From: Phyllobates terribilis
Taxonomy: Eukaryota
Assembly (NCBI RefSeq): GCF_046119375.1
Contig: NW_027362761.1
Coordinates: 548,328,001-548,392,000, forward strand
Reading direction: 5' to 3'
DNA length: 64,000 nt
This document shows, piece by piece, positions 27,776 through 64,000 of this stretch (position 1 is its first letter; each line of letters opens with the position of its first letter). Below the pieces are notes generated by a model. That model saw only the letters and a list, made by a program, of their open reading frames with translations, did no database searches and was not told where the DNA came from. A program made the translations under genes and the position numbers.

Positions 27776-27834
27776 CTTTTTATTACACATTTGCCATTGA
27801 TAGTGCGAGTGTAAGCTATTTTACTTCATTTACA

Positions 27835-32083: not shown

Positions 32084-32454
32084 TAGAGATGAGCGTTGTT
32101 CTACTCGAACTGTTCGCCAATCTCAAATTCGAGCTGTTTTGGGCGGTGTTCCAGCCGTTCGGCGAACAAGAACAATTTGAGAAAAATTCGGCTGTTCGAG
32201 GTTATGTTCGATAACTGTTCGTGCACCAAAATCATAACTGGATTTTTTCTCAGTAATGATGAAAATTCATGTTAATACGCAGTTTGAGTGTACAGCGGGG
32301 TGGGGGGAGGGGCAGGGGATGGATCTCTGCAGGAACAATGAAGATCTCCATTTTTTTTTTCTCTTTCCCGCATTTACAGTGGGGAGGTGCAATCTGTCAG
32401 CCTATCAGCAGCGCACACACGGAGCGAAGTGCTTTTTTTCACACAAGCAAGGGC

Positions 32455-32530
32455 ATGTGTCATTGGCAGTGTATGTCACATGTCCTTGCCCTATAAGACC
32501 AAGCCATTTTCCCCGTCGCCACCATTTTCT
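32455..32530 (+). promoter_or_regulatory. Putative family B transposase promoter
   Basis: cattggc, TATAAG at 32492, gccatttt YY1/Inr-like motifs. Motif-only inference. Confidence 0.4.
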
Positions 32531-33002
32531 CACTGCTGCAGCTGCGTGTAAGACGGCACCGCTGTTGCTGTGTGTGCTATACCTTGTTAATTTCAAGCCA
32601 ATTTTCGCACAAATCTACAGATAGCTTGGGAGTAGGGAATAGTTGTGATTGCAGTCCTTTTAAGGACTAGGTTACAGCATTTCCTACGACTTTTATCAGG
32701 CAGGTCTGTGCTCTTAAATAGATAGATTGTGGGAGTAAAGACTAATTGTAATTGGAGTCCTTTTCAGGACTAGGTTACATCAGTTCCTATCAGTTTTTGC
32801 CAGGCAGGTCTGTGCCAGTGCTGTGCAAGTTTTTTTCACAGCATTTGGCTGAATCTAGCAAAGCTAATCCTTTTTGGCCTATTGCAGAGTGTGTTAGTCA
32901 GTGGAGTAGCCTTTCTGTGTTGCAAGATATACCACCTGTGTATAGAATACCAATTTTTTTACTGCACCTAGTGAAGTAAAATCTTTTGGGCATAGCATCA
33001 TT

Positions 33003-34262
33003 CTATTAGTCCATCTATACAGACCTCCATCAGGTTGCAAATTGAATATAATTTTTTTCTGCATCTACCTCTGAAAAAATATTGGGCTTCTAGCTGTGTG
33101 TGGGACTTGTTGTATTAGTCCATCTATACTGACCTCCATCAGGTTGCAAACTGAATATATTTTTTTCTGCATCTACCTCTGAAAAAATATTGGGCTTCTA
33201 GCTGTGTGTGGGACTTGTTGTATTAGTCCATCTATACAGACCTCCATCAGGTTGCAAACTGAATATATTTTTTTCTGCATCTACCTCTGAAAAAATATTG
33301 GGCTTCTAGCTGTGTGTGGGACTTGTTCTATTAATCGATCTATACAGACCTCCATCAGGTTGCAAACTGAATATATTTTTTTCTGCATCTACCTCTGAAA
33401 AAATATTGGGCTTCTAGCTGTGTGTGGGACTTGTTGTATTAGTCCATCTATACTGACCTCCATCAGGTTGCAAACTGAATATATTTTTTTCTGCATCTAC
33501 CTGAGAAAAAATATTGGGCTTCTAGCTGTGTGTGGGACTTGTTCTATTAATCCATCTATACAGACCTCGATCAGGTTGCAAACTGAATATATTTTTTTCT
33601 GCATCTACCTCTGAAAAAATATTGGGCTTCTACCTGTGTGTGGGACTTGTTGTATTAGTCCATCTATACTGACCTCCATCAGGTTGCAAACTGAATATAT
33701 TTTTTTCTGCATCTACCTCTGAAAAAATATTGGGCTTCTAGCTGTGTGTGGGACTTGTTCTATTAATCCATCTATACAGACCTCCATCAGGTTGCAAACT
33801 GAATATATTTCTTTCTGCATCTACCTCTGAAAAAATATTGGGCTTCTAGCTGTGTGTGGGACTTGTTGTATTAGTCCATCTATACTGACCTCCATCAGGT
33901 TGCACACTGAATATATTTTTTTCTGCATCTACCTCTGAAAAAATATTTGGCCTTCTAGCAGTGTGTGGGACTTTCTCTATTAGTCCATCTATACTGACCT
34001 CCATCAGGTTGCAAATTAAAAATAATTTTTATCTGCATCTAGCTCTGAAAAAATATTTGGCCTTCTAGCAGTGTGTGGGACTTTCTCTATTAGTCCATCT
34101 ATACTGACCTCCATCAGGTTGCAAATTAAAAATAATTTTTATCTGCATCTAGCTCTGAAAAAATATTTGGCCTTCTAGCAGTGTGTGGGACTTTATTAGT
34201 CCATCTATACTGACCTCCATCAGGTTGCAAATTGAATATAATTTTTTTCTGCATCTAACCCA
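33003..34262. repeat. 108-bp satellite array, about 11-12 units
   Basis: tattagtccatc at 33004, 33113, 33221 and onward. Confidence 0.95.
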
Positions 34263-34373
34263 GCCAATAGTTTTGGCCTAATACCACAGTTTGGCCACTC
34301 AGCTCTGCTCGGTTCCCATCCATTGTTTTTTTGTGCAAACAACTCCAGAGTTGTTAATTAGTTAACCACCAAA

Positions 34374-37300
34374 ATGAGTGGAAAAAGGCCTGCTGCTGGT
34401 GGAAAGGGGAATAGGCGTGTTGGGAAGGGGAAAAAAGGTTGTGTCCGTGGGGTAGGTGTTAAAGCAACAGTAACATCTGCAGAAGAAACACCATCTTCCA
34501 GCCAAACTAAAATGTCTACTTCTTTTAGCGGACAATGTGATAAGATCCCTTTCTTACGGCCACGCCAATCGCTACAAATTCCAGATGAGGCACAAAAACA
34601 GCAGGTGCTTCAACGGATATCAAGTGCTCCTTTAAGTGGGCTCTCCTCCACATCAACTTCAACATCACAAATACTCCAGTCCTCAAAGGTGTCACCCCAA
34701 TCGCACTTGTTTCCTCACAGCTCCCAAATCTCCAGCTGCCCGTCTGAGTATGAGGTAGAACAGATGGTTGAGTCTGCAGAGCTGTTTACTCATACTATAG
34801 CCTGGGAATCAGAGGTCGACTCCAGCGCTTCTGTGAATCCAGACGAGGAAATGATCTGCACTGATGCCCAGAATCTTTATGAGTCGGATCCAGGACCAGA
34901 CGCAGGAGGTTCTGACCATAATGTAGACCCTCATTCCCAAACTGTAACTCCTGTTGGTGGAGACAATGAGGAAGACGATGATAAGACTCAAATACCTGAT
35001 TGGAGCGACAACTTTAGTTTTTTGTCAGGGCAGGAACAGGTTGGCTCTGAGGACGACGGGTGTGATAACGCACAGGGTGATGATGATGAGGTTGGAGATC
35101 CCACTTACTGTCAACCCACAGTAAGCCAAGAGATGAGGACAGCAGAGGAGGTGGAGGAAGATGCTAGTGACGACGAGGTCAGGTTGCGCCTTCCTGGACA
35201 GAGACGTAGTACTGGAAGCACGTCAACAACTGCATCCTCAAACACAACTCTGCCTCTCACCACAAGTCGTGGTGGCTCTTCAGGTCGCATGGGTGCTAAG
35301 CCTTGCATAGCCTGGGCATATTTTCAGATCGATAAAGATGACCCAACTCGTGTTATCTGTAACATTTGTCAGCAAAAGCTAAGTAGAGGCCAAAAAATAC
35401 ATAGTTTGAGTACTTCATGCATGAACCAGCACATGGACATGAAGCATAAGTTGCAGTGGGAAGCTCAGTGTGCTACAATGCGGCCTAGCCGGCCGGGCCA
35501 ACCACCGTCTGCCATATCTTGTGCATCCGCGGCCTCTTCATCATCTGTGACTGGGGGGACAGCAGTCACACCTGTTTTGGGGCGCAGACCTGCCACCTCT
35601 TTACCCGCAACAGCCAGCGTGATTGGCAGGTCATCATTTTCTTTGGAGGTGGTAACACCAGCTGGTGTTGAGCGCTGTCCGACATCGATAGCACCACCTT
35701 TGGATCAAGGCAACCTAACATGTCCGCCTGCATCTTCCTCACAGACCGGCAGTTTGCCGGGGACACCCTTATCAACCCCGTCTAAGCACAATAGCCAGCC
35801 CTCGGTCCCTCAGATGTGGACAAGTAAAAGACCATTTCCTCCTAGCCATGAGAAAGCTAAGAGGTTGAATTTCACCATCTGCAAGTTCTTGGCTACAGAA
35901 ATGCTGCCTTTCCGCCTGGTGGACACAGAGGATTTTCGAAACCTTATGTCCGTCGCAGTGCCCCAGTACCAGATGCCCAGTCGGCACTACTTCTCAAAGA
36001 AAGGTGTGCCTGCGCTCCACCAGCATGTCGCACACAACATCACCGCTTCTTTGAGAAACTCTGTGTGTGACAGGGTGCATTTCACCACAGACACTTGGAC
36101 GAGTAGGCATGGACAGGGGCGTTACATGTCGCTGACTGGGCACTGGGTAACTATGGTGACAGCAGGACAAGGGGCTGCTGTCCAAGTCTTGCCGTCCCCA
36201 CGAGTTGTGCGTCAATCCTCTTTATGTCAAAGTTCCTCCACTGCTTCTGCCTCCTCAACCTCCTCTCGGTCTTCCACCTGCACCCAAAGCCTGTCTGGTC
36301 ATGCCACAAGCTTTCTAACTGCGCAGAAGGGATCCTGCACACCTCTTTACTATGCTGGCAGTAGGGCTCAATGTCATCAGGCGGTTTTTACATTGAAATG
36401 TCTGGGAAATGTGAGTCACACAGCTGAGGAGTTGTGGTCAGCTCTGGAGAACCAATTTCATGAATGGTTGTCTCCACTGGACCTGAAACCAGGGAAGGCC
36501 GTGTGCGACAATGCTGCAAACCTGGGTGCGGCCCTTCGCCGGGGCAATGTCACACACGTGCCTTGTATGGCTCACGTGTTGAACCTGGTTGTCCAGCAAT
36601 TTTTAGCCCACTATCCCAGACTAGATGGCCTTCTGCAGAAGGCACGGTCGCTGTGTGCTCACTTCCGCTGTTCGCATCCCGCAGCTCAGCGACTTACATC
36701 TCTACAGAAGTCGTTGGGCCTGCCACTTCACCGGCTAAAATGCGATGTGCCTACCCGGTGGAATTCAACTCTGCACATGTTGCAGCGACTGTGGCAGCAC
36801 CGACAAGCCCTGATGCAATACGTTCTGACGTATAGCCTGGGCCAACGAGATCCAGAGGTGGGGCAAATCACGTTGGAGGATTGGTCTCAGATCAGGGACC
36901 TATGCACCCTTCTGCACAGTTTTGAAATGGCGACGAAGATGTTTAGTGCTGATGATGCCATTATCAGCATGACTATTCCGGTGATTTACATGCTGGAGCA
37001 CATGTTAATAGAATTCGGAGTCAGGTGGTGGCACAAGAGGAGGTGGAGGAAGTAGAGGAGGAGGAGTTGTATGCGGAAGGGCTAACATCTGCAAGGTCCA
37101 GACGGTCGGCAGCACCAAGGCGGCAGGCATGTGAGGGTGGGGGAGATGGTTTTACCAGGGCGCATGGTAGCAGCCAAACTAGTGAGGAAGGTGCAGGAGC
37201 CCAGGAAGAAGTGGAGGATGAACTGATGGAAGGCTCATCAGATGAGGGAGACCTTGATCACATTTCTGTTGTGCGAGGTTGGGGGGAGAGGACAGAGGAA

Positions 37301-38055
37301 GGAAGCATGATTGTTACCTCGCCACCAACACAACAGGGACTTGGTGCTCCTGGATGCGCAACACACATGAGTGCCTTCTTGCTGCACTACCTGCAACATG
37401 ACCCTCGAATTGTGAGAATTAGAAATAATCCTGACTACTGGGTTGCCACACTGTTAGATCCCCGGTACAAAAGTAAATTTGCAGAAATTATTCCTGCCAT
37501 AGAAAGGGATGCACGCATGCAGGAGTATCAGCAGAGACTGTTGCAGAATCTTACATGTGCTTTTCCACAAAATACCAGTGGTGCACGTAGTGAATCTCAC
37601 AGTTCCAACTTGCCAACCGTGGGACCGTCAAGTGTTCAGCACTCAAACCGTAACAGAACCACAGTATCTGCTGGTAACATCACCACTTTTTTAGCCCATC
37701 CTTTGCAAGGCCACAGGAGACAAGAAGTCTGACACATAGTCAACGCCTAGAGACGATGGTACAGGAGTATCTCCAAGTAAACATTGAAGCCACGACTGTG
37801 TCACTGGACCCTTGCTCTTTTTGGGCTTCCAATCTGGATAAATGGCCGGAGCTAGCCACTTACGCCTTGGAGATCTTGTCATGCCCCGCAGCCAGCGTTC
37901 TGTCTGAACGTGTGTTCAGCGCTGCTGGTGGTGTGCTGACAGATAAGCGCACTCGGCTCTCCACTGATAATGTAGACAGACTCACGTTCATAAAGATGAA
38001 CAAATCATGGATCCGAAACGACTTTTCTACCCCTGTGTCATCCTGGGGAGAGTAA
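34374..38055 (+). pseudogene. hAT family B transposase (ZBED-like), two frameshifts; about 1,230 aa when repaired
   Basis: ORFs 34374-37055, 37025-37732, 37756-38055. BED AWAYF...CNIC...MNQHMDMKH, FTTDTWTS, VCDNAAN, PCMAH, TRWNS, LLDPRYK, SVLSERVFS all intact. Confidence 0.96.
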
Positions 38056-38490
38056 AAGCTTGATGATTGGTTAAAATCACCCTACCAACCGTTTTAAGCT
38101 TTCAAATTACTAATCATGTTTATCTGTATCTTGGCTGGAAAATAATTTGGGCTTTGTAGCAGTGTGCAGCACTGATTCTATTAGGCCATCTATAATAAGC
38201 TCCACCAGATTTAAAATTACTAATCATGTTTATCTGTATCTTGACTGGAAAATAATTTGGGCTTTGTAGCAGTGTGCAGCACTGATCCTATTAGGCCATC
38301 TATACTAAAGCTTCACCAGATTTAAAATTAATAATAATTTTTAGCTGCATCTAGCCCGGAAAATAATTTTGGGGCTCCGAGATGCGCAAGACACATAAGT
38401 GCCTTCTTGCTGCACTACCTGCAGCATGACCCTCATATTGTCAGAATTCGAAGTAATCATGACTACTGGGTTGCCACACTCTTAGATCCC

Positions 38491-39865
38491 CCAAACTTTT
38501 CGATCAACCTTTTCATTTTAATAAAGACCAAAAAAATGGTCATTTTTGAAATTATAAGCATTAGCAGGTTGTTAGAAACTGAAATCAAACAGTTTTCAAC
38601 TCAAAACTTTATTCTAGGTGATGTTACATTTTCACATAGGACCGCTTGTTCGAAAGGAGCTTCTGAACTCTCTCGTCCATTGAATTTGTCAGGTTTTGGA
38701 TGGTTTCTGCTTCAATTGTTTTGCATGAGGACAGAATACCCTCCCAGAGCTGTTGCTTAGATGTGAACTGCCTCCCGCCATCATAGACACTCCTTTTAAT
38801 GATGCTCCAAAGGTTCTGAATGGGGTAGAGGTCAGGGGAGCATGGGGGTCACACCATAATTTTGTCCCCTTTTATGCCCATATCAGCCAGAGATGCAGAT
38901 GTTTTATGTGCAGCATGAGATGGTGCATTATCATGCAGAAAAATGATCTTGCTGTGAAATACATGGTTCTTCTTCTTGAACCATGGCAGGAAGTGCTGTT
39001 TGAGAAAATCCACATACATTATGGAGTTCATCTTTAGCGCCTTCAGGGATCCTAAAGGGGCCGACAATCTCTCTCCCCATGATTCCAGCCCAAAACATTA
39101 CTCCACCTCCTCCTTGTTGGCGCTGTAGCCGTGTTTGCGTGGGGTGTCCATCAACCAGCCATCCTCCACTCCATCCATCTGGACCATCGAGCGCTGCACG
39201 GCACTCATCCGTGAACAAAACAGTTTTGAAATCAGTCTTCATGTAATGTTTGGCCCACTGGAGCCGTTTCTGCTTGTGTGAAGTGGATAGAGGAGGTCGA
39301 CAGGATGGCATATGCACAGCTGCAAACCTCTGAAGGACCCTGCATCTTGTTGTTCGGGGGACGTTGGAGGCACAAGCAGCTTCAAAAACTTGTCTGCTGC
39401 TATGACAAGGCTTTTTTGCCGCTGCTCTTTCAACCTGACGTAATTGCCTGTAGGAAAGAGTCCTCAATTTGCCCTTATCAGCACGCACACGTGTGTACTG
39501 TGAATCAGCTACATACTTGTTGATTGCCTAGACACTTCATCCTGATCATCGCACAATGTTGATTGTAGTCATGCCTTGACCTAAACACTCCACAATTTGT
39601 TGCTTCTCAGCAGCCGACACATCCTTTTTCTTTCCCATTTTGGCAGAAAATGTAGGCTGCTTAATAATGTGAGACAGCCTTCTTAAGTAGTCTTGCCTTT
39701 CATTGGACACATCTGCCAAACTAATTAGCACAGGTGTCTGCAATTGCTTACAGTGATATAAAGAGCCCTGACACACATCACCATCAATGAGTTTAACTGA
39801 CAAACAAACAAATTCTTCCCTTATCACTCCTAAACACTTTTTGCATAATAATTTGGAACACAGTG
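38491..39865 (-). mobile_element. Tc1/mariner remnant carried inside family B copy 1
   Basis: TA followed by TIR cactgtgttccaaattattatgc at the 39865 end. MGKKKDVS..., VLFTDEC, FLHDNAPSH motifs. Other end truncated. Confidence 0.9.
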
Positions 39866-39949
39866 TACATGTGCTTTTCCACAAAACACCAGTGGTTCAC
39901 GTAGTGAATCTTACAGTTCTAACTTGCCAACCGTGGTCTGTATGGAGTT

Positions 39950-41765
39950 GTTCAATAAAGGGCCCAAAATTAAGATAACATAGATGGGAGAGGTCTCTAT
40001 GAATAGGAATTCCTAAGTATTTGATACCCTGTGAGGGCCAGGCAAAGGGAAAGTTGGACTGGATGGAATCCTATATGGATTTGGTGAGGGAGACATCGAG
40101 GTCCTCAGACTTCGATGCATTGATTTTAAAATTTGACCATGTAACAAAGTGATCTATTTCAGCCATAACAGCATGGATGGATATATGTGATTGAGTGATA
40201 TATACTAGGACATCATCAGCAAATAGAGAGCACTTGTACTCGGTGCCTCCCACCTCAATCCACCTAATATTGAGGTTATGGCGAATTGATGAGAGCAGGT
40301 GCTCCGTCACTAGGATGTATAAGAGAGGGGACAGAGAACATCCCTGCCTTGTCCCATTGGTGATTGTGAAAGGTGATGAAAATGTTCTGACGCGCCCCCT
40401 GGACCTTGGGACATCCGGAGCCGGACACTTTTTGGTGGATGCTGGTGGTTGTAGTCTCCGTGGCGGCAACCCGGTTCCGTGGCTCAGGGCGGTCAAACCA
40501 GTGGCGGAACTATTTATGTGGTTTTGATGTTTAAATGTCCGACTACGCCACCCGTGGATTGCGGTCAGAATGAACCGCCACTCCTGGGCAGACCGCTGAG
40601 GCTGGTGTTGTGGGTGCAGCAGAGCGTAGCATAAATCCCCACGGGAGGAGTATAGCCTCAGGGCAGTGTATGCGGAGGATGGGGGTGATGGTGCAGGGCA
40701 GCAGCAGTAATGACATGGAGTCAGTGATGCAGTCCAGGGCCTTTACTCACAGTTATTATTATCCAGACCACGTCTGCAGGTAACGGCTGCCCACGTCGTA
40801 CTGTGCTCACCAGGTGAGGGGCTCAGACAACTCCCAGATAACTTTGGAGTGCTTCACAGGACCCCCTTTGTGTGTCCTTTGTCTGGCCTTTCTTACCAAC
40901 CCTTCTGTCCGGCTGCCTCGGGCCTCCTCTTGGTAAATTTGGCGCCAGTTTCCCTGACCCTATGTGGTGCCTTCCTAGCGGGTGTAGCGAGGGGCTGCGC
41001 CACATAAAATGTCACAGCCTCCTGTTTCTAGCTGAGGGTCGTTTCCTGCCTCCACTAGTTTCGGGGACCGGTCTCCCCCTTTGGCCTGACCCCTCCACGC
41101 AGGTGGATTCGGGCGTGCGGTAGCGACTCGCCCGTCCGCACCCCTGAGATCCCTTCGTTCCTCGTTCCTGGAGCCTTCTCCGCTCCTCTTCCTTCCTTCT
41201 CCCTCTTCCAGGCCTGGGCCTCTGTTACTAGGCCCGCCTCCGGAGCAGAGCGCATGCAGAGCCCCTGCTCCCTGCCACTTCTGCTCAGACTTCTCTGCAC
41301 TGAACTAAGATGGTGCCCACCTTTTATACTCCCTTCTCAATGCACCCAGGAACTGCTTCCTCCCTGCTCCTGCACTACAGGGTTCCCCTTCCTCAGTGTT
41401 CCCTCCCCCCACTCCAGCCAGGGACAGGGACTGTCGTGCCCATCTCAGGGGCATATTGGTCGCCCTGCCCCATGGCAATGTGGTGTAATGCATGCAGGTG
41501 TCGGGTCCTGATCCACACTACATCCTTACCTGAGAGTGAGATATCACACCTCTGGGTGAGGTGCAATACCTCTGTAGCAACCGAGCCCTCAGGGTGCTAC
41601 AGTTCCATTTATCTTCAGCCTAGGTGACGTATTGCGATACAGGTCCGTGATTTTGGCTATAAAAGGGTCCCCTAGACCCCTACCCCAAGCTTTTTAAGAG
41701 AATCATATATGGCGTGCCAGGAGACTCTATGGAATGCTTTCTCAGCATCCAACGAGAGTATCTAA
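39950..41765 (-). pseudogene. L1-clade reverse transcriptase fragment, split by solo LTR
   Basis: LSLDAEKAFHRVSW (41765-41700), RLKINGT|[15 protein letters not shown]...LFADDVL...KYLGI once the LTR is removed. Confidence 0.88.
40388..41601 (-). mobile_element. 1,214-bp solo LTR
   Basis: Minus strand TGTAGC...GCGTCA with 4-bp TSD GAAC. TATAAAA about 275 nt from its 5' end. Confidence 0.85.
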
Positions 41766-41871
41766 TTACAAATTTTTAACTGCATCTAGCCCAGGAAATA
41801 CTTTGTGCCTAGTAGCAGGGTCTGCTAGTCAGCGGATTATCCCGGCTGTTAAGCAAGCTACACCACCTGTA

Positions 41872-42137
41872 GTTTGGACACTTCATTTTTTCAAAGGAAA
41901 TGCTTCGGGACCACGGGATACTCAGTGAAGAGCATCAGGAGGCACCCCAAGGCATAGGGGCTCGGACTGGCAGCAGGATGCCTTGCGGTGGACAGCCGAG
42001 CTCGATCCTTATAAAAGCTTTTTAACTGCAGCAGCTTTAGTGGACGCTACTGGAGCTGGAATTACGCGGCTGCTGGCATGAGACTTGCCCTCCAATAGAT
42101 CCTTGTAAATGGATTTAAAGTGTATTTATTCAAATTA
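41872..42137 (-). pseudogene. 18S rRNA: 18S rRNA gene fragment (about 265 bp) inside family B copy 1
   Basis: Reverse complement gagggcaagtctcatgccagcagccgcgtaattccagctcc...gctgcagttaaaaagct...gatgctctt...cccgaagcatttcctttgaaaaaa matches vertebrate 18S as I recall it. Confidence 0.9.
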
Positions 42138-42631
42138 GAGAGACAATTTAAATTAAAAAGCTTAGAGCTGCCTCCACCACAGGGGGGCTCGCTCGACCCA
42201 CCAGCGGACAGGCACCAGTATTGGGAGAGGGGGGCTGGCCGTCAGGGTTCACCGCGGCTCTGGCACAAACCCGGCGACACGGAGGTGGCACGGGCAGGAG
42301 CGGACTGAACGTGTCGGCTTCTCACTTTTTGGATTTTAGAAGGGCATGACATGCCTATATCTGAGTCTCCCCCTCCTTTTACTCCTCCACCTCTTTTCTT
42401 TTCGCATGACTATATGTACTTGTCACTTTTCCATGTGTTAGTTGTGTCTTCTGAGCAGTTTGTCAGCTTTTGGACACCTTTGAAGGTGTTTTCTATGTGT
42501 TTCTATGTGTTTTTGTTTGCCTGCCATTGGTTTTAACGGTGTTCGAAGGTGTTCGACGAACAGTTCGGCGAACACACGGGTGTTCGACGAACCGATCCGA
42601 ACTCGAACACTACGGGGGTGGCTCAACACTA

Positions 42632-43900: not shown

Positions 43901-44199
43901 TTTGGAAAGCCTTCCAATCACAGCTTAGTCCAACGGTGCACAGGAGACCCAGTTGCTATAAATGGAAAAAACAGATTAGTTAAGGCCCTCTGACCTCCAT
44001 GTCACTCCCAAGGGGCATTGGAATGCCGTCGAAATTTTTAGTAGGCATTGCACTCACTGTGTGAATATAACTGTGTAGCCGAATCGCTCCTTTTGGTACA
44101 GAAACATATCCTGCAAGACATGTGTGGTTGACTGGCCTGATATTGATGATAATGGTCCCTGTTCCTCCTGCTCTTTCTCCTTTGCCACCACCTCATCCA

Positions 44200-51193: not shown

Positions 51194-51518
51194 GGGATCT
51201 AAGAGTGTGGCAACCCAGTAGTCATGATTACTTCGAATTCTGACAATATGAGGGTCATGCTGCAGGTAGTGCAGCAAGAAGGCACTTATGTGTCTTGCGC
51301 ATCTCGGAGCCCCAAAATTATTTTCCGGGCTAGATGCAGCTAAAAATTATTATTAATTTTAAATCTGGTGAAGCTTTAGTATAGATGGCCTAATAGAATC
51401 AGTGCTGCACACTGCTACAAAGCCCAAATTATTTTCCAGCCAAGATACAGATAAACATGATTAGTAATTTGAAAGCTTAAAACGGTTGGTAGGGTGATTT
51501 TAACCAATCATCAAGCTT

Positions 51519-54500
51519 TTACTCTCCCCAGGATGACACAGGGGTAGAAAAGTCATTTCGGATCCATGATTTGTTCATCTTTATGAACGTGAGTCTGTCT
51601 ACATTATCAGTGGAGAGCCGCGTGCGCTTATCTGTCAGCACACCACCAGCAGCGCTGAACACACGTTCAGACAGAACGCTGGCTGCGGGGCATGACAAGA
51701 TCTCCAAGGCGTAAGGGGCTAGCTCCGGCCATTTATCCAGATTGGAAGCCCAAAAAGAGCAAGGGTCCAGTGACACAGTCGTGGCTTCAATGTTTACTTG
51801 GAGATACTCCTGTACCATCGTCTCTAGGCGTTGACTATGTGTCAGACTTCTTGTCTCCTGTGGCCTTGCAAAGGATGGGCTAAAAAGTGGTGAAATGATT
51901 CCGCAAAATTGATGTTACCAGCAGATACTGTGGTTCTGTTACGGTTTGAGTGCTGAACACTTGACGGTCCCACGGTTGGCAAGTTGGAACTGTGAGATTC
52001 ACTACGTGCACCACTGGTATTTTGTGGAAAAGCACATGTAAGATTCTGCAACAGTCTCTGCTGATACTCCTGCATGCGTGCATCCATTTCTATGGCAGGA
52101 ATAATTTCTGCAAATTTACTTTTGTACCGGGGATCTAACAGTGTGGCAACCCAGTAGTCAGGATTATTTCTAATTCTCACAATTCGAGGGTCATGTTGCA
52201 GGTAGTGCAGCAAGAAGGCACTCATGTGTGTTGCGCATCCAGGAGCACCAAGTCCCTGTTGTGTTGGTGGCGAGGTAACAATCATGTTTCCTTCCTCTGT
52301 CCTCTCCCCCCAACCTCGCACAACAGAAATGTGATCAAGGTCTCCCTCATCTGATGAGTCTTCCATCAGTTCGTCCTCCACTTCTTCCTGGGCTCCTGCA
52401 CCTTCCTCACTAGTTTGGCTGCTACCATGCGCCCTGGTAAAACCATCTCCCCCACCCTCACATGCCTGCCGCCTTGGTGCTGCTGACCGTCTGGACCTTG
52501 CAGATGTTAGCCCTTCCGCATACAACTCCTCCTCCTCTACTTCCTCCACCTCCTCTTGTGCCACCACCTGACTCCGAATTCTGTTTAACATGTGCTCCAG
52601 CATGTAAATCACCGGAATAGTCATGCTGATAATGGCATCGTCAGCACTAAACATCTTCGTCACCATTTCAAAACTGTGCAGAAGGGTGCATAGGTCCCTG
52701 ATCTGAGACCACTCCTCCAGCGTGATTTGCCCCACCTCTGAATCTCGTTGGCCCAGGCTATACGTCAGAACGTATTGCACCAGGGCTTGTCGGTGCTGCC
52801 ACAGTCGCTGCAACATGTGCAGAGTTGAATTCCACCGGGTAGGCACATCGCATTTTAGCCGGTGAAGTGGCAGGCCCAACGACTTCTGTAGAGATGTAAG
52901 TCGCTGAGCTGCGGGATGCGAACGGCGGAAGTGAGCACACAGCGACCGTGCCCTCTGCAGAAGGCCATCTAGTTTGGGCTAGTGGGCTAAAAATTGCTGG
53001 ACAACCAGGTTCAACACGTGAGCCATACAAGGCACGTGTGTGACATTGCCCCGGCGAAGGGCCGCACCCAGGTTTGCAGCATTGTCGCACACGGCCTTCC
53101 CTGGTTTCAGGTCCAGTGGAGACAACCATTCATGAAATTGGTTCTCCAGAGCTGACCACAACTCCTCAGCTGTGTGACTCACATTTCCCAGACATTTCAA
53201 TGTAAAAACCGCCTGATGACATTGAGCCCTACTGCCAGCATAGTAAGGAGGTGTGCAGGATCCCTTCTGCGCAGTTAGAAAGCTTGTGGCATGACCAGAC
53301 AGGCTTTGGGTGCAGGTGGAAGACCGAGAGGAAGTTGAGGAGGCAGAAGCAGTGGAGGAACTTTGACATAAAGAGGATTGACGCACAACTCGTGGGGACG
53401 GCAAGACTTGGACAGCAGCCCCTTGTCCTGCTGTCACCATAGTTACCCAGTGCCCAGTCAGCGACATGTAACGCCCCTGTCCATGCCTACTCGTCCAAGT
53501 GTCTGTGGTGAAATGCACCCTGTCACACACAGAGTTTCTCAAAGAAGCGGTGATGTTGTGTGCGACATGCTGGTGGAGCACAGGCACACCTTTCTTTGAG
53601 AAGTAGTGCCGACTGGGCATCTGGTACTGGGGCACTGCGACGGACATAAGGTCTCGAAAATCCTCTGTGTCCACCAGGTGGAAAGGCAGCATTTCTGTAG
53701 CCAAGAGCTTGCAGATGGTGAAATTCAACATCTTAGCTTTCTCATGGCTAGGAGGAAATGGTCTTTTACTTGCCCACATCTGAGGGACCGAGGGCTGGCT
53801 ATTGTGCTTAGACGGGGTTGATAAGGGTGTCCCCGGCAAACTGCCAGTCTGTGAGGAAGATGCAGGCGGACATGTTAGGTTGCCTTGATCCAAAGGTGGT
53901 GCTATCGATGTCGGACAGCGCTCAACACCAGCTGGTGTTACCACCTCCAAAGAAAATGATGACCTGCCAATCACGCTGGCTGTTGCGGGTAAAGAGGTGG
54001 CAGGTCTGCGCCCCAAAATAGGTGTGACTGCTGTCCCCCCAGTCACAGAGGATGAAGAGGCCGCGGATGCACAAGACATGGCAGACGGTGGTTGGCCCGG
54101 CCGGCTAGGCCGCATTGTAGCACACTGAGCTTCCCACTGCAACTTATGCTTCATGTCCATGTGCTGGTTCATGCATGAAGTACTCAAACTATGTATTTTT
54201 TGGCCTCTACTTAGCTTTTGCTGACAAATGTTACAGATAACACGAGTTGGGTCATCTTTATCGATCTGAAAAAATGCCCAGGCTATGCAAGGCTTAGCAC
54301 CCATGCGACCTGAAGAGCCACCACGACTTGTGGTGAGAGGCAGAGTTGTGTTTGAGGATGCAGTTGTTGACGTGCTTCCAGTACTACGTCTCTGTCCAGG
54401 AAAACACAACCTGACCTCGTCGTCACTAGCATCTTCCTCCACCTCCTCTGCTGACCTCATCTCTTGGCTGACTGTGGGTTGACAGCAAGTGGGATCTCCA

Positions 54501-55219
54501 ACCTCATCATCATCACCCTGTGCGTTATCACACCCGTCGTCCTCAGAGCCAACCTGTTCCTGCCCTGACAAAAAACTAAAGTTGTCGCTCCAATCAGGTA
54601 TTTGAGTCTTATCATCGTCTTCCTCATTGTCTCCACCAACAGGAGTTACAGTTTGGGAATGAGGGTCTACATTATGGTCAGAACCTTCTGCGTCTGGTCC
54701 TGGATCCGACTCATAAAGATTCTGGGCATCAGTGCAGATCATTTCCTCGTCTGGATTCACAGAAGCGCTGGAGTCGACCTCTGATTCCCAGGCTATAGTA
54801 TGAGTAAACAGCTCTGCAGACTCAACCATCTGTTCTACCTCATACTCAGACGGGCAGCTGGAGATTTGGGAGCTGTGAGGAAGCAAGTGCGATTGGGGTG
54901 ACACCTTTGAGGACTGGAGTATTTGTGATGTTGAAGTTGATGTGGAGGAGAGCCCACTTAAAGGAGCACTTGATATCCGTTGAAGCACCTGCTGTTTTTG
55001 TGCCTCATCTGGAATTTGTAGCGATTGGCGTGGCCGTAAGAAAGGGATCTTATCACATTGTCCGCTAAAAGAAGTAGACATTTTAGGTTGGCTGGAAGAT
55101 GGTCTTTCTTCTGCAGATGTTACTGTTGCTTTAACACCTACCCCACAGACACAACCTTTTTCCCCTTCCCAACAAGCCTATTCTCCTTTCCACCAGAAGC
55201 AGGCCTTTTTCCACTCATT
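51519..55219 (-). pseudogene. hAT family B transposase, copy 2 (frameshift near the N-terminus, stop at 52979, frameshift near 51882)
   Basis: ORFs 52979-55081, 51842-52879, 51519-51818 are nearly identical to copy 1. Confidence 0.96.
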
Positions 55220-55327
55220 TTGGTGGTTAACTAATTCACAACTCTGGAGTTGTTTGCACAAAAAAACAATGGATGGGAACCGAGCAGAGCTGAGTGGCCA
55301 AACTGTGGTATTAGGCCAAAACTATTG

Positions 55328-57664
55328 GCTGGGTTAGATGCAGAAAAAAATTATATTCAATTTGCAACCTGATGGAGGTCTGTATAGATGGATTAATAGA
55401 ACAAGTCCCACACACAGCTAGAAGCCCAATATTTTTTCAGAGGTAGATGCAGAAAAAAATATATTCAGTTTGCAACCTGATGGAGGTCAGTATAGATGGA
55501 CTAATAGAACAAGTCCCACACACAGCTAGAAGCCCAATATTTTTTCAGAGGTAGATGCAGAAAAAAATATATTCAGTTTGCAACCTGATGGAGGTCTGTA
55601 TAGATGGATTAATAGAACAAGTCCCACACACAGCTAGAAGCCCAATATTTTTTCAGAGGTAGATGCAGAAAAAAATATATTTAGTTTGCAACCTGATGGA
55701 GGTCTGTATAGATGGATTAATAGAACAAGTCCCACACACAGCTAGAAGCCCAATATTTTTTCAGAGGTAGATGCAGAAAAAAATATATTCAGTTTGCAAC
55801 CTGATGGAGGTCTGTATAGATGGATTAATAGAACAAGTCCCACACACAGCTAAAAGCCCAATATTTTTTCAGAGGTAGATGCAGAAAAAAATATATTCAG
55901 TTTGCAACCTGATGGAGGTCTGTATAGATGGATTAATAGAACAAGTCCCACACACAGCTAGAAGCCCAATATTTTTTCAGAGGTAGATGCAGAAAAAAAT
56001 ATATTCAGTTTGCAACCTGATAGAGGTCTGTATAGATGGATTAATAGAACAAGTCCCACACACAGCTAGAAGCCCAATATTTTTTTAAAAGTAGATGCAG
56101 AAAAAATATATTCAGTTTGCAACCTGATGGAGGTCTGTATAGATGGATTAATAGAACAAGTCCCACACACAGCTAGAAGCCCAATATTTTTTCAGAGGTA
56201 GATGCAGAAAAAAATATATTCAGTTTGCAACCTGATGGAGGTCTGTATAGATGGATTAATAGAACAAGTCCCACACACAGCTAGAAGCCCAATATTTTTT
56301 CAGAGGCAGATGCAGAAAAAAATATATTCAGTTTGCAACCTGATGAAGGTCTGTATAGATGGATTAATAGAACAAGTCACACACACAGCTAGAAGCCCAA
56401 TATTTTTTCAGAGGTAGATGCAGAAAAAAATATATTCAGTTTGCAACCTGATGGAGGTCTGTATAGATGGATTAATAGAACAAGTCCCACACACAGCTAG
56501 AAGACCAATATTTTTTCAGAGGTAGATGCAGAAAAAAATATATTCAGTTTGCAACCTGATGGAGGTCTGTATAGATGGATTAATAGAACAAGTCCCACAC
56601 ATAGCTAGAAGCCCAATAATTTTTCAGAGGTAGATGCAGAAAAAAATATTTTCAGTTTGCATCCTGATGGAGGTCAGTATAGATGGACTAATACAACAAG
56701 TCCCACACACAGCTAGAAGCCCAATATTTTTTCAGAGGTAGATGCAGAAAAAAAATATATTCAGTTTGCAACCTGATGGAGGTCTGTATAGATGGATTAA
56801 TAGAACAAGTCCCACACACAGCTAGAAGCCCAATATTTTTTCAGAGCTAGATGCAGAAAAAAATATATTCAGTTTGCAACCTGATGGAGGTCTGTATAGA
56901 TGGATTAATAGAACAAGTCCCACACACAGCTAGAAGCCCAATATTTTTTCAGAGGTAGATGCAGAAAAAAATATATTCAGTTTGCAACCTGATGGAGGTC
57001 AGTATAGATGGAATAATACAAGTCCCACACACAGCTAGAAGCCCAATTTTTTTTCAGAGGTAGATGCAGAAAAAAATGTATTCAGTTTGCAACCTGATGG
57101 AGGTCAGTATAGATGGTCTAATACAACAAGTCCCACACACAGCTAGAAGCCCAATATTTTTTCAGAGGTAGATGCAGAAAAAAATATATTCAGTTTGCAA
57201 CCTGATGGAGGTCTGTATAGATGGATTAATAGAACAAGTCCCACACACAGCTAGAAGCCCAATATTTTTTCAGAGGTAGATGCAGAAAAAAATATATTCA
57301 GTTTGCAACCTGATGGAGGTCTGTATAGATGGATTAATAGAACAAGTCCCACACACAGCTAGAAGCCCAATATTTTTTCAGCGGTAGATGCAAAAAAAAA
57401 TATATTCAGTTTACAACCTGATGGAGGTCTGTATAGATGGATTAATAGAACAAGTCCCACACACAGCTAGAAGCCCAATATTTTTTCAGAGGTAGATGCA
57501 GAAAAAAATATATTCAGTTTGCAACCTGATGGAGGTCTGTATAGATGGATTAATAGAACAAGTCCCACACACAGCTAGAAGCAAAATATTTTTTCAGAGA
57601 TAGATGCAGAAAAAAATTATATTCAATTTGCAACCTGATGGAGGTCAGTATAGATGGACTAATA
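55328..57664. repeat. 108-bp satellite array, about 21-22 units
   Basis: Reverse complement of the 33003-34262 unit. Confidence 0.95.
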
Positions 57665-58792
57665 GTATGATGCTATGCCCAAAAGATTTTACTTCACTAG
57701 GTGCAGTAAAAAAATTGGTATTCTATACACAGGTGGTATATCTTGCAACACAGATAGGCTACTCCACTGACTAACACACTCTGCAATAGGCCAAAAAGGA
57801 TTAGCTTTGCTAGATTCAGCCAAATGCTGTGAAAAAAACTTGCACAGCACTGGCACAGACCTGCCTGGCAAAAACTGATAGGAAGTGATGTAACCTAGTC
57901 CTGAAAAGGACTCCAATTACAATTAGTCTTTACTCCCACAATCTATCTATTTAAGAGCACAGACCTGCCTGATAAAAGTCATAGGAAATGCTGTAACCTA
58001 GTCCTTAAAAGGACTGCAATCACAACTATTCCCTACTCCCAAGCTATCTGTAGATTTGTGCGAAAATTGGCTTGAAATTAACAAGGTATAGCGCACACAG
58101 CAACAGCGGTGCCGTCTAACACGCAGCTGCAGCAGTGAGAAAATGGTGGCGACGGGGAAAATGGCTTGGTCTTATATTGCAAGGACATGTGACATACACT
58201 GCCAATGACACATGCCCTTGCTTGTGTGAAAAAAAGCACTTCGCTCCGTGTGTGCACTGCTGATAGGCTGACAGATTGCACCTCCCCACTGCAAATGCGG
58301 GAAAGAGAAAAAAAAATGGAGATCTTCATTGTTCCTGCAGAGATCCATCCCCTGCCCCTCCCCCCACCCCGCTGTACACTCAAACTCCGTATTAACATTA
58401 ATTTTCATCATTACTGAGAAAAAATCCAGTTATGATTTTGGTGCATGAACAGTTATCGAACATAACCTCGAACAGCCGAATTTTTCTCAAATTGTTCGTG
58501 TTTGCCGAACCGCTCGAACACCGCCCAAAACAGCTCGAATTTGAGATTGGCGAACAGTTCGAGTAGAACAACTCTCATCTCTACTAAAGAGACAGCGATA
58601 GTTAATTGTTTTTCGCTTAAATAGGAGATAAGGTGCATTACATTAAACGGACACTAAACATAGCACAGAACCTTTCTGCTCCCACTCCACAAACTGCTCA
58701 AATTCAGCTGACGAAGCAGACAACAGATGATGTTGTTGGTTGTCAGACCTTAACTTGGATAGTTCATCAATATATTATTGGTGCAATTCATA

Positions 58793-59878: not shown

Positions 59879-60009
59879 AAGAGGCATGCACCTTTTCATG
59901 AATCAGGAGCATCTGATTTCACCACACTGGTCTGGATGAATCAAGTCCAATTTCTTTAAGAAGATGGCACATCTGTCCAGCTACTTCAGTTAAAAGCTGC
60001 AAATACTGG

Positions 60010-62878
60010 AGAAAACCGAGTACACGGCATAAATAGAAAAAAACTTTATTAAAGGTAGAAAAGTCTTATTAAAAAGTACAGATTACAAATACATGTGAAT
60101 TGCGGAGCATGTCAAAAAATAGAAAACATGGCCATAGTTGCGCTGTAGCCAGGGAGACGAAAAAACCCATGCAAAAAAATTATTCAAGGGAAAAGTCACG
60201 ATGCATCTTATAAATAGATACGTACTCCCTAAGCGCAGGGCTAACAGGGCCTATGTAGACAGTAACACACTGAGATTGGGAGCAAGGAGTATATTACTCA
60301 TGAAGTCAATGAAAATCTGGATACAGAGTATATATACAAAGAACTTTGAAACGTCAAGCAATGAGAAAGTATCCAGAGTATGCATATACAATCCATTATA
60401 GATGACTCTCCAATGTAAACACCAGGGACAAAGAGGACGAGGGGGTGGACTGACAGGGCAGGAGCGAACAGATGGAGGGCCCACAAGCCTCGACGCGCAT
60501 TTCGCGTAAATAGCTTTTTCATGAGGCGTCGCTGGTCCAGAGACTGGCATCTTTTTAAATATCGCGCTCAGAAGGTCACATGTACAGTCATGTGACCGGA
60601 ATAAGATGGCCGCCGACCGGAAGGCATATCCGGTGCATGCGCAGGTGTCACTGTAGCGTCCCGCCCCCCGCTGCGTCTGTGAAGGCAGCGGCGCAACCCT
60701 GGAAGTGCCAGGAAGACAACATCCGGAGCGTCACCGGCGCCATGGAGACAGACTCGCGGGACCGTAGTTGGGTGAGTAGCCCCGCGCATGCGCGCCGCCC
60801 ACCTCAAAGCGCCGCATACAGCTTCCACCATAGCCATAGCTACATATCTACAATAAACACACATCCCACAGTATCATACATTATTATAAATAGAGGTCAG
60901 TGTAAGAAACAATAACATATATCAAAGTTCATATAATAAGATACAGACATTTTAAGGGATTCAATTCCACGGCAGAACGTAGACAGCCAGGTGGGCGGGG
61001 TCCATCAGGGTCGGTCAGTCCTCCCTCTTCTTTTAGTTGGAAAGCGCTTACAGCAAAAGGGGGTATCATAGCCGGAATAAGGATCAGAGATATGTTATAT
61101 ACACTGAATAACAAAGAAATAAAGGAAAAAACCGTTAAAATCAGAAATTAAAATCAAAAGATAAAAATGGGCAAACCACAAATGCTCATCCCGCCATATG
61201 TTATATAGCAGGGACTACAGGAGAGCAGAAAATAGCCAAAAAAGGCGATACAATCAAATGCAACAGGGGGATATAGCAGGTACCCCTCAGTCAGGACAAC
61301 CCATAGCTCATAGGGCTATGGATTAAATCCTGAAAAGAGTGATAGTCAAACACATGAGACGCAGAACAGCATTGTACTAGATCATAGGAATGACGAAAAA
61401 CCCAAATTCTCATTCAGACCCCGCGGTGCCAGGGTATCAAGAATGATGATCCATCTCGCCTCCTTTTGTGCCAGGAGGCGTTTGGCATTCCCACCCCGGG
61501 AGCCGAGACACACTTTATCAATCCCCCGCACCTTAAGTGAACGGGCATCACAATTATGAACGGCCTTAAAGTGCCGGGGTAGTGTCTTCAACTCCTGGGG
61601 AACCGTGGATGTCCGTGCCGCGCCAATGTCCCGTACGTGTTCCCAAACTCTGACTCGAAGCTCCCTAGTAGTTACGCCAACATAAATCAAATTGCACCCA
61701 CACGTGGCAAAATAAACCACATGTGTGGTGCTACAAGAGATAAAGTGGTGGATATCGAACTGGCGGGAGCAATCAGAGTTGGGGAATGACGCACAGCGAA
61801 GGACATTGGCGCAGGCGACACAATGACCACACGGGAATGAACCCACCATGGGACTGCGGGATCCGAACGGATTCGGCCGAGAGGGAACATAGTGGCTAGT
61901 GACCAGAATGTCCCTCAGCGTAGGGGAACGCCGCGGTGTCATGAGCGGGAAATCGCCTATTCGTTCCCGCAGAGAGGGCTTCGTGTTAAGTATGTCCCAG
62001 TGACGAGAGAGGATCCGCCGCATAGTTCCCCACTCATGATTGAATGTGGATATGTAGTGGATCCTCTCTGTTTTATCATGTTTATAAACAGTAGAGGGAT
62101 GTATAAGACGGTCCCTAGGGGTATCACGGGCCCTCCTGTAGCCACGGCCAATAGATCGATTGCTGTACCCACGTTGTTGAAAGCGCTCAGCCAGATCTGC
62201 GGCCTGTTTCTCGAAACTGGAGATAGTGGAGCAGATTCGCCTCATCCTGAGGAATTGGCCGACCGGGACGGCTCTGATGGTAGAAACATCATGAGCTGAA
62301 GTGGCATGTATCAGGGAGTTGACAGCGGTCGGCTTCCTATACACATCCGTCTGGATACGGCCATCATGGTCTACCTCAAGGGTGATATCCAGAAAGTCAA
62401 CTCGCTTCGGATGATAAGTATAGGTAAGCCTGATCGCATGTGTGTTAGAGTTCAACCGTAACATAAAATCGTCAAGCTCCTCCACCGTCCCCTGCCAGAA
62501 AAATAAAATATCATCTATGTATCTCATCCATGACACGACCCGGTCAGTGCCCCGTATCCCCTCGTCGCCAAAAATCTCCCTCTCCCAAGCGCCCAGGAAG
62601 AGGTTGGCATACGAGGGGGCAAAGGCTGTACCCATGGCCGTGCCACGCCTTTGGAGATAAACAGTATCTTTAAAAAGAAAATAATTCTGGCAGAGGACGA
62701 ATTGGAGGAGCTCGAGGATAAATTCCCTAGATGGACCGTCCAGGTCAGAACCCCCTAGGAAGAGGCGAACCGCACTCAGGCCCAGCTCATGGCTGATGCA
62801 GGTGTACAGACTCTCGACATCGGCCGTGACCAGGAGAGTGCCGTCAGTCACAAGGGCGCCGTCAACCCGCGTAAGGAC
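60010..62878 (-). mobile_element. Penelope-like element B (3' part), interrupted by family B copy 3
   Basis: RT-GIY-YIG ORF followed by a GC-rich pLTR-like region with a TATA-like motif and a degenerate hammerhead. Confidence 0.8.
61382..62878 (-). CDS. Penelope RT + GIY-YIG endonuclease, uninterrupted C-terminal ~498 aa (N-terminus cut off by hAT insertion)
   Basis: LVTADVESLYTCI, RRGTAMGTAFAPSYANLFLG, WMRYIDDI, CGHCVAC, VVYFATCGCNLIYVGVT. Confidence 0.92.
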   Translation of the reverse strand, partial: VLTRVDGALVTDGTLLVTADVESLYTCISHELGLSAVRLFLGGSDLDGPSREFILELLQFVLCQNYFLFKDTVYLQRRGTAMGTAFAPSYANLFLGAWEREIFGDEGIRGTDRVVSWMRYIDDILFFWQGTVEELDDFMLRLNSNTHAIRLTYTYHPKRVDFLDITLEVDHDGRIQTDVYRKPTAVNSLIHATSAHDVSTIRAVPVGQFLRMRRICSTISSFEKQAADLAERFQQRGYSNRSIGRGYRRARDTPRDRLIHPSTVYKHDKTERIHYISTFNHEWGTMRRILSRHWDILNTKPSLRERIGDFPLMTPRRSPTLRDILVTSHYVPSRPNPFGSRSPMVGSFPCGHCVACANVLRCASFPNSDCSRQFDIHHFISCSTTHVVYFATCGCNLIYVGVTTRELRVRVWEHVRDIGAARTSTVPQELKTLPRHFKAVHNCDARSLKVRGIDKVCLGSRGGNAKRLLAQKEARWIIILDTLAPRGLNENLGFSSFL

Positions 62879-64000
62879 TAGTGTTGAGCCACCCCCGTAG
62901 TGTTCGAGTTCGGTTCGGTTCGTCGAACACCCGTGTGTTCGCCGAACTGTTCGTCGAACTGTTCGTCGAACACCTTCGAACACCGTTAAAACCAATGGCA
63001 GGCAAACAAAAACACATAGAAACACATAGAAAACACCTTCAAAGGTGTCCAAAAGCTGACAAACTGCTCAGAAGACACAACTAACACATGGAAAAGTGAC
63101 AAGTACATAAAGACATGCGAAAATAAAAGAGGTGGAGGAGTAAAAGGAGGGGGAGACACAGATATAGGCATGTCATGCCCTTCTAAAATCCAAAAAGTGA
63201 GAAGCCGACACGGCCAGTCCGCTCCTGCCCGTGCCACCTCCGTGTCGCCGGGTTTGTGCCAGAGCCGCGGTGAACCCTGATGGCCAGCCCCCCTCTCCCA
63301 ATACTGGTGCCTGTCCGCTGGTGGGTCGAGCGAGCCCCCCTGTGGTGGAGGCAGCTCTAAGCTTTTTAATTTAAATTGTCTCTCTAATTTGAATGAATAC
63401 ACTTTAAATCCATTTACAAGGATCTATTGGAGGGCAAGTCTCATGCCAGCAGCCGCGTAATTCCAGCTCCAGTAGCGTCCACTAAAGCTGCTGCAGTTAA
63501 AAAGCTTTTATAAGGATCGAGCTCGGCTGTCCACCGCAAGGCATCCTACTGCCAGTCCCAGCCCCTATGCCTTGGGGTGCCTCCTGATGCTCTTCACTGA
63601 GTATCCCATGGTCCCGAAGCATTTCCTTTGAAAAAATTAAGTGTCTAAACTACAGGTGGTGTAGCTTGCTTAACAGCCGGGATAATCCGCTGACTAGCAG
63701 ACACTGCTACTAGGCACAAAGTATTTCCTGGGCTAGATGCAGTTAAAAATTTGTAATTAGATACTCTCGTTGGATGCTGAGAAAGCATTCCATAGAGTCT
63801 CCTGGCACGCCATATATGATTCTCTTAAAAAGCTTGGGGTAGGGGTCTAGGGGACCCTTTTATAGCCAAAATCACGGCTCTGTATCGCAATACGTCACCT
63901 AGGCTGAAGATAAATGGAACTGTAGCACCCTGAGGGCTCGGTTGCTACAGACGTATTGCACCTCACCCAGAGGTGTGATATCTCACTCTCAGGTAAGGAT
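62879..64000 (-). mobile_element. hAT family B composite element, copy 3 (right end; continues beyond window)
   Basis: Near-identical to 47046-48165, including 18S fragment (63385-63649), L1 piece and LTR start (63921). Left flank GTAAGGAC is the predicted TSD. Confidence 0.95.

What the first reader, a model, noticed from the sequence alone, without database searches (positions are those of the whole stretch)
32084..64000. Giant cargo-carrying hAT: one 10-11-kb composite copied at least three times in 32 kb
Copies 1 and 2 (and the visible part of copy 3) share the same nested interior: transposase, duplicate transposase piece, Tc1, L1 RT fragment with solo LTR, and 18S fragment. They have different 8-bp flanks, so the cargo was assembled first and then transposed as one unit. 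Identity looks to be in the high-90% range and terminal CpGs are largely retained, indicating recent activity. This is a Pack-type, composite vertebrate hAT that amplifies pieces of three other TE classes and rDNA. I do not recall a description of it, but cannot search.
Basis: partly seen in the sequence, partly recalled or inferred. Interest (0 to 1): 0.78.

Follow-up and report, generated by a model that had tools for sequence, protein, structure and literature searches.

The report
Cargo-carrying frog hAT transposon
A 10-12 kb cut-and-paste transposon in a frog genome picked up dead scraps of three other mobile elements and of ribosomal DNA and then jumped as one unit; this is an unusually heavily loaded case of a known kind of hitchhiking, not a new kind of element.

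Summary
Observation confirmed. Two complete copies (10,548 and 11,538 bp) have perfect, different 8-bp target-site duplications and unrelated flanks. They differ by 1.6% outside an internal array and share every cargo junction. Only 1.1 kb of a third copy is visible. The transposase is an Ac-type hAT closest to poison-frog (dendrobatoid) proteins.

The loaded progenitor therefore probably had an open 1,233-codon transposase. It looks like an autonomous element with dead passengers, not a typical non-autonomous Pack element. Host-derived cargo is only about 270 bp of 18S (2.6%).

Size is ordinary for hATs here: copy 1 sits inside another TSD-bounded hAT of 11.6 kb with the same array-transposase-array-debris layout. 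Activity is a few million years old, and both full copies are dead.

Precedents exist for each feature (Tol2 with Angel, Xenopus Pack-hAT-N8, Pokey with rDNA spacer). I found no description of this family, but could not check Dfam, Repbase or genome-wide copy number. New variant of a known kind; interest 0.42.

The parts
32084..42631 (+). Composite hAT, copy 1 (10,548 bp), TSD ACTGTGAC at 32076-32083 and 42632-42639
32084..32231 (+). Left end: 11-bp imperfect TIR plus CpG-rich subterminal GTTCG/CGAAC repeats (7 in 150 bp; 9 in the right 150 bp; 1.5 per kb window-wide)
33001..34257 (+). 108-bp internal tandem array, 11.6 units, upstream of the transposase
34374..38055 (+). hAT transposase gene (BED finger, hATC domain, Hermes-aligned motifs); broken in this copy by a 1-bp gap at 37006 and a 19-bp gap near 37679
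38097..38368 (+). 110-bp repeat (2.4 units; one unit fewer in copy 2), 70-77% like the 108-bp unit
38369..38491 (+). Duplicate transposase piece A (89% to 37341-37463)
38492..39867 (-). Tc1 element, one TIR intact at a TA site, other TIR missing; ORF broken identically in copies 1 and 2
39866..39936 (+). Duplicate transposase piece B (94% to 37552-37622), begins at the Tc1 TA
39937..41757 (-). L1-type RT fragment truncated at both ends, interrupted by the solo LTR
40388..41601 (.). Solo LTR, 1,214 bp, TG...CA ends, 4-bp TSD GTTC; superfamily not tested
41758..41872 (+). Element-native sequence again (73% to 32849-32959; 88% over 34 bp to 38336-38369)
41873..42145 (-). 18S rRNA fragment, about 270 bp: firm core 42044-42163 by Rfam; extension through the variable region to a conserved motif near model position 750-785 seen in the copy 2 and 3 alignments at lower posterior
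42444..42631 (+). Right end with subterminal repeats and TIR
47046..58583 (-). Composite hAT, copy 2 (11,538 bp), TSD CTAAAGAG; 108-bp array of 21.6 units at 55335-57665; transposase 51519-55218 with 1-bp gaps at 55162 and 51887 and a stop at 52981
62879..64000 (-). Composite hAT, copy 3, right 1,122 bp only (LTR tail, L1 piece, 18S, right end)
61382..62878 (-). Target of copy 3: RT plus GIY-YIG-like ORF (Penelope-like by motif, recalled; no Pfam hit), open for 498 codons up to the insertion
23484..45640 (+). Older, different hAT that hosts copy 1: TSD ATCCTTAT, 150-bp array (24140-27774), decayed transposase (about 27.8-31.1 kb), 52-bp array (31416-32083 and 42632-43755), inverted transposase scrap (about 44.1-44.9 kb); 11,601 bp without copy 1; splits a Penelope-like RT
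3466..8955 (+). Element with the same ends (about 92%) and TSD ATTGGAAT but a different, palindromic 5-kb interior and no transposase match

Best explanation
An Ac-type hAT of a dendrobatoid-like frog gathered dead passengers in the region between its stop codon and its right end, where they disturb neither the gene nor the ends. Shown by junctions: a Tc1 inserted at a TA inside a transposase-derived piece, and a later deletion removed one Tc1 TIR plus about 88 bp; an LTR element inserted into an L1 fragment (4-bp TSD) and survives as a solo LTR. Shown: the loaded element then moved as a unit by cut-and-paste, giving perfect 8-bp TSDs at unrelated sites. Inferred (about 0.65): the loaded progenitor encoded a working transposase, because every transposase lesion is private to one copy while cargo lesions are shared. 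Inferred (about 0.55): the 3.4-kb block came in at once by template switching from a decayed sister copy, not piece by piece. Inferred: copy number rose by gap repair or transposition during replication; three copies within 32 kb suggest local hopping, but an abundant family in a TE-dense region is not excluded. After insertion the copies decayed neutrally and their 108-bp arrays changed length independently. The cargo has no apparent function; it hitchhikes.
For: Perfect TSDs at both full copies (chance about 1.6e-5 each). An unoccupied version of the copy 1 site, with a single ACTGTGAC, lies in the same 52-bp array at 42944-43055. TSDs fit NTNNNNAN at 11 of 12 positions over 6 sites (P 6e-6; consensus from PMC3878927). 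Five transposase lesions, 0 shared; the frame is open for 1,233 codons along the pairwise alignment. Sister proteins P0120 and P0115 read through the broken positions. Tc1 is the same length in both copies with the same stops and frameshifts. dN/dS between copies is 0.84, with 12 synonymous changes vs 13.0 expected under neutrality. Duplicate pieces vs resident gene: 8 synonymous, 9 non-synonymous (ratio 0.34, P=0.027), so selection acted on a transposase lineage after they split. Native repeats and a short TTGG.GCT similarity bracket the block.
Against: Only two copies show the transposase, so '0 of 5 shared' is a small sample. Three of the five lesions are 1-bp gaps in base runs and could be assembly errors (each copy is still dead without them). 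Neutral dN/dS between copies gives no positive proof that the loaded element made its own enzyme. No near-identical intact protein was found (best full-length matches about 50%, best partial 83-92%). Divergence is uneven along the element (1.28% left vs 2.46% right, P=0.0003, split chosen after looking; 0.9 vs 1.6% without CpG sites, P=0.009), which hints at mosaic ancestry rather than two clean daughters of one master. The synonymous test rests on 17 changes.
Confidence: 0.75

Rival explanations
1. Non-autonomous Pack-like element moved in trans by a separate, cargo-free autonomous partner; its own ORF was incidental.
For: Eukaryotic transposases act in trans (established knowledge). An element with the same ends and no transposase (3466-8955) has a perfect TSD, so these ends can be moved in trans. 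Both visible genes are dead, and dN/dS is neutral.
Against: No shared lesion in 3.7 kb of ORF while the cargo ORFs carry shared lesions. A long-idle gene of the same age as the cargo would be expected to share lesions.
Confidence: 0.2
2. Segmental or inverted duplication, with gene conversion, of one old nested locus.
For: Copies 1 and 2 are inverted, 4.4 kb apart; divergence is uneven and includes a 515-bp identical run (P=0.03).
Against: Homology stops exactly at the TIR in all 5 visible ends; TSDs are distinct and perfect; flanks are unrelated.
Confidence: 0.03
3. Assembly artefact (repeat mis-join or haplotype duplication).
For: The region is very repetitive (63% of the window lies in TSD-bounded or partial hATs); some 1-bp gaps look like base-run errors.
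Against: 1.6% substitutions with CpG bias (38 of 148), different array lengths and unit patterns, and biologically correct TSDs are not produced by mis-assembly.
Confidence: 0.02

Closest known systems
Tol2 (medaka hAT) carrying the Angel MITE
   Same: Autonomous vertebrate hAT with 8-bp TSDs that amplified while carrying another TE inside it (bioRxiv 10.64898/2026.01.12.699174, passages).
   Different: Tol2 is 4.7 kb with one 0.7-kb passenger and is still active. This element is 10.5-11.5 kb with a nested four-part block, rDNA and tandem arrays, and its visible copies are dead.
Multicopy Pack-TIRs, e.g. Pack-hAT-N8_XT of Xenopus tropicalis
   Same: Frog hAT that captured sequence and then transposed to several sites with distinct TSDs; microhomology at breakpoints (PMC8277862, passages).
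   Different: Those carry short non-TE pieces (median 224 bp; 291 bp in the frog example). Here over 90% of the acquired DNA is TE debris, and a full transposase gene is kept.
Pokey (Daphnia piggyBac element)
   Same: DNA transposon up to 9.8 kb with a transposase ORF, rDNA-derived sequence and a length-variable repeat region upstream of the ORF (PMC3849761, passages).
   Different: Pokey targets 28S and carries spacer repeats that evolve in concert with rDNA. Here there is one decayed 18S coding fragment, and the array is unrelated to it (P=0.6).
ToxhAT (fungal 14-kb hAT)
   Same: hAT of similar size moving cargo as a unit (PMC12506042, search listing and start of abstract only).
   Different: Its cargo is a functional gene. 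No functional cargo is evident here.
Dendrobatoid 'ZBED4/6-like' hAT transposases (Ranitomeya variabilis P0100, P0120; Anomaloglossus baeobatrachus P0115)
   Same: Form a clade with this transposase (SH-aLRT 100, quick tree of 28 rows); 68-80% identity over hundreds of residues.
   Different: Only protein fragments; whether those genomes carry the same cargo could not be seen.

Membership tests
hAT superfamily (Ac type) | 8-bp target-site duplication | tested here: met
   2 of 2 complete copies perfect; copy 3 has one side only
hAT superfamily (Ac type) | Short imperfect TIRs with subterminal repeats | tested here: met
   11 bp, 9 of 11 identical; GTTCG/CGAAC at 47-60 per kb in the ends vs 1.5 per kb window-wide
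hAT superfamily (Ac type) | BED finger and C-terminal hATC domain | tested here: met
   PF02892 E 1e-10; PF05699 E 2e-16
hAT superfamily (Ac type) | DDE catalytic core with CxxH and RW motifs | tested here: met
   Second D, CxxH, TRWNS and the E of SERVFS align to Hermes; first D assigned by the TTDTW motif only; motifs present in both copies
hAT superfamily (Ac type) | NTNNNNAN target preference | tested here: met
   11 of 12 positions over 6 hAT-like sites in the window (4 with these ends, 2 of other families; one has a single flank, one a 1-mismatch TSD). Its being specific to the Ac branch is recalled.
hAT superfamily (Ac type) | Demonstrated transposition activity | not testable with these tools
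   Needs an excision or polymorphism test
Pack-TIR (PMC8277862) | Non-TE sequence enclosed by a TIR element | tested here: met
   18S piece of about 270 bp, 2.6% of the element
Pack-TIR (PMC8277862) | Captured interior is host, non-TE DNA | tested here: not met
   3,389 bp of the acquired DNA is transposase, Tc1, L1 and LTR debris
Pack-TIR (PMC8277862) | Multiple copies with distinct TSDs (multicopy class) | tested here: met
Pack-TIR (PMC8277862) | Identifiable parental copy at high identity | not testable with these tools
   No host genome available; the 18S piece is visibly decayed against the Rfam consensus
Pack-MULE-like non-autonomous elements (definition recalled) | No functional transposase in the mobilised unit | tested here: inconclusive
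   Both copies dead now, but 0 of 5 lesions shared
Segmental duplication | Homology extends into flanks | tested here: not met
Catalogued Dfam/Repbase family | Match to a library consensus | not testable with these tools

The most novel reading that the evidence does not exclude
A poison-frog hAT lineage in which 10-12 kb autonomous elements with internal satellite arrays routinely carry nested TE debris and 18S fragments, nest in one another and hop locally. A sizeable share of the 'young' Tc1, L1, solo-LTR and dispersed-rDNA copies counted in these giant genomes would then be passengers of hAT jumps, not traces of their own activity, and hAT's share of genome expansion would be underestimated.
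Probability: 0.3. Interest if true: 0.65.

Novelty: new variant of a known kind. Interest (0 to 1): 0.42.

Why it matters
It is a clean natural example of a cut-and-paste element staying mobile, and probably self-sufficient, while about half of it is passengers and arrays. If the family is abundant, repeat landscapes of poison-frog genomes (hAT-Ac listed at 2.8-5.1%, PMC12208295) would misassign its cargo to Tc1, L1, LTR and rRNA bursts, and 18S probes or rRNA annotation would pick up false sites. If copies are few, it is a local curiosity.

Tried and rejected
(1) 108-bp array derived from 18S: rejected, local score 17 vs null mean 17.8, P=0.6; the array is also unrelated to the 150-bp and 52-bp arrays of the host hAT (P 0.06-0.65). 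(2) A shared frameshift near 37690: first alignment suggested one, but it resolves into a 19-bp gap in copy 1 and a separate 1-bp gap in copy 2. (3) Purifying selection between copies 1 and 2: not seen. (4) Protein search with the right-end frame next to the 18S piece: 0 of 9 candidates scored. The 99 proteins gave one weak hit to the cargo region and none of six 18S-type peptide motifs, so nothing is known about cargo in other frogs. (5) Unequal ages of the three copies: private changes 14, 10 and 4 of 1,105 sites, P=0.07, not significant. (6) Other Rfam matches in copy 1 (6 of 7) are below gathering score and treated as chance. (7) The careful tree did not finish; only the quick tree is used. 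(8) No fold or complex prediction was run, as none bears on the question. Prokaryotic, phage and plasmid collections were not searched. (9) Literature searches for a prior description found none; one search returned 0 papers. Supplements were not read; repeat libraries deposited with poison-frog genome papers may hold this family.
Full report
OBSERVATION. A self-BLAST of the window shows one 10-12 kb unit three times: 32084-42631 (+), 47046-58583 (-) and 62879-64000 (-, cut by the window end). Homology stops at the terminal base in all five visible ends. A scan for TIR-like ends paired by matching 8-mers found five pairs: both full copies, 3466-8955, 23484-45640 and a 216-bp element at 12312-12527 with one mismatch. 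Flanks of the copies are unrelated. Copy 1 lies in a 52-bp array, where chance 8-mer repeats are expected. However, a neighbouring higher-order unit (42944-43055) shows the same junction with a single ACTGTGAC, so the duplication is real. Outside the 108-bp array, copies 1 and 2 differ at 148 of 9,174 sites, 38 of them CpG transitions.

ANATOMY. From the left end: TIR and subterminal GTTCG/CGAAC repeats; a 0.77-kb leader; a 108-bp array (11.6 or 21.6 units); the transposase gene (34374-38055); a related 110-bp repeat; then a 3,389-bp block made of transposase piece A, a Tc1 lacking one TIR, piece B starting at the Tc1 TA, and an L1 RT fragment split by a 1,214-bp solo LTR with a GTTC duplication. 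The L1 frame reads on across the LTR, and the L1 piece has neither end nor tail. Next come 115 bp of element-native sequence, about 270 bp of antisense 18S, and the right end. Rfam firmly supports a 120-bp 18S core. The copy 2 and 3 alignments extend it, at low posterior through the variable region, to a conserved motif near model position 750-785.

TRANSPOSASE. BED and hATC domains and Hermes-aligned catalytic motifs make it a hAT. The best full-length relatives are anuran 'ZBED4/6-like' proteins at about 50%. Fragments from Ranitomeya and Anomaloglossus reach 80-92% in the searched region and form a clade with it (quick tree, 28 selected rows of 126 proteins). The host is thus most likely a dendrobatoid frog; the species was not determined.

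KEY RESULT. Copy 1 has gaps of 1 bp (37006) and 19 bp (near 37679). Copy 2 has two 1-bp gaps (55162, 51887) and one stop (52981). None is shared, and along the pairwise alignment the frame is open for 1,233 codons. Sister proteins P0120 and P0115 read through those positions. By contrast the Tc1 is 1,376 bp in both copies with the same stops and frameshifts. So the passengers were dead, and the transposase probably alive, when the unit multiplied. Between copies dN/dS is 0.84, matching neutral decay. Caveats: only two genes are seen; three lesions are base-run gaps that may be assembly errors; an open frame does not prove it supplied the enzyme.

AGE. K2P distance is 1.59%, about 3.2 My at 2.5e-9 per site per year. 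That rate is Xenopus-derived and taken from bioRxiv 10.1101/2023.11.06.565769 (passages), so the date is rough. Divergence is uneven (dispersion P=0.002; left 1.28%, right 2.46%), which suggests exchange among family members or two sub-lineages. Copy 3 has the fewest private changes (4 of 1,105 vs 10 and 14; P=0.07) and interrupts an RT ORF still open for 498 codons.

HOW THE CARGO CAME. Shown: Tc1 into a TA of a transposase-derived piece, then a junction deletion; LTR into L1. Inferred: the block entered at once by template switching from a decayed sister copy. It is bracketed by native repeats (88% over 34 bp), starts at a short similarity between the repeat unit and the transposase, and its transposase pieces differ from the resident gene by 6-11% with a synonymous excess (8 of 17, P=0.027). 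Stepwise insertion inside a long-lived active lineage fits these data too. The 18S piece contains a 12-base match (TTTTTAACTGCA) to the native unit, but it lies inside the piece, so I draw nothing from it. Tol2 vectors are listed with over 11 kb capacity, and local hopping is reported for Tol2 and Ac/Ds (PMC3878927, passages), so neither size nor clustering needs a new mechanism.

CONTEXT. Copy 1 is nested in the 3' 52-bp array of an older hAT (23484-45640, TSD ATCCTTAT, 11,601 bp without copy 1) that itself splits a Penelope-like RT. That element has the same plan: end, tandem array, transposase (44-48% to ours), array, transposase scrap, end. Large size, arrays and 3' debris therefore look typical of hATs in this genome. 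A 5.5-kb element with the same ends as the composite but a palindromic interior (3466-8955) sits in the matching 3' repeat of another such hAT.

COMPARISON. It is a hAT by every feature tested. It works like a multicopy Pack-TIR (capture, then transposition), but it fails the feature that the interior is host DNA, and it is probably not non-autonomous. Tol2 with Angel, Pack-hAT-N8_XT, Pokey and ToxhAT (listing only) each anticipate one aspect. Passages of four frog genome papers and four targeted searches gave no description of this family. The library lacks most subscription papers, supplements were not read, and Dfam and Repbase could not be checked. No eukaryotic genome search was available, so copy number and distribution are unknown.

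VERDICT. Real, well supported, and a new variant of a known kind. The probable autonomy of the loaded progenitor is the most interesting point. Interest 0.42; 0.65 if the family proves abundant enough to distort TE and rDNA counts.

Noticed in passing
window 23484-45640: A 22-kb TSD-bounded hAT (11.6 kb without copy 1) with 150-bp and 52-bp arrays, inserted in a Penelope-like RT whose halves lie at 45641-46350 and about 22350-23483: three-level nesting.
   Followed up: partly
window 3466-8955: Same ends as the composite (about 92%), perfect TSD, interior is a 4.8-kb near-perfect palindrome (93.6%) with 200-, 166- and 121-bp repeats. Whether it moved with this interior is unknown (single copy).
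   Followed up: partly
window 3458-3465 and 32076-32083: Two of the four insertions with these ends lie in the 3' CTCTTCCAAGGGG-type repeat of older hATs; target preference or chance.
   Followed up: no
window 225-3092 and 8956-9617: Decayed hAT of the same family as the 23484-45640 element (72-75%), with its right end at 9617; left end not found.
   Followed up: partly
window 61382-62878: RT plus GIY-YIG-like ORF open for 498 codons, cut by copy 3; no Pfam hit at E 0.001.
   Followed up: partly
window 58780-59900: A second, decayed Tc1-like element next to copy 2, with no DNA match to the cargo Tc1.
   Followed up: partly
window 33001-34257 and 55335-57665: The 108-bp arrays evolved separately: copy 1 alternates two unit types and ends in three divergent units that copy 2 lacks.
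   Followed up: partly
window 12312-12527: 216-bp hAT-like MITE with a 7 of 8 TSD.
   Followed up: no
window 20319-20542: Telomere-like degenerate (AACCCT-rich) repeat tract.
   Followed up: no
window 42146-42443: About 300 bp of GC-rich sequence between the 18S piece and the right end, absent from the 3466-8955 element; origin unknown.
   Followed up: partly
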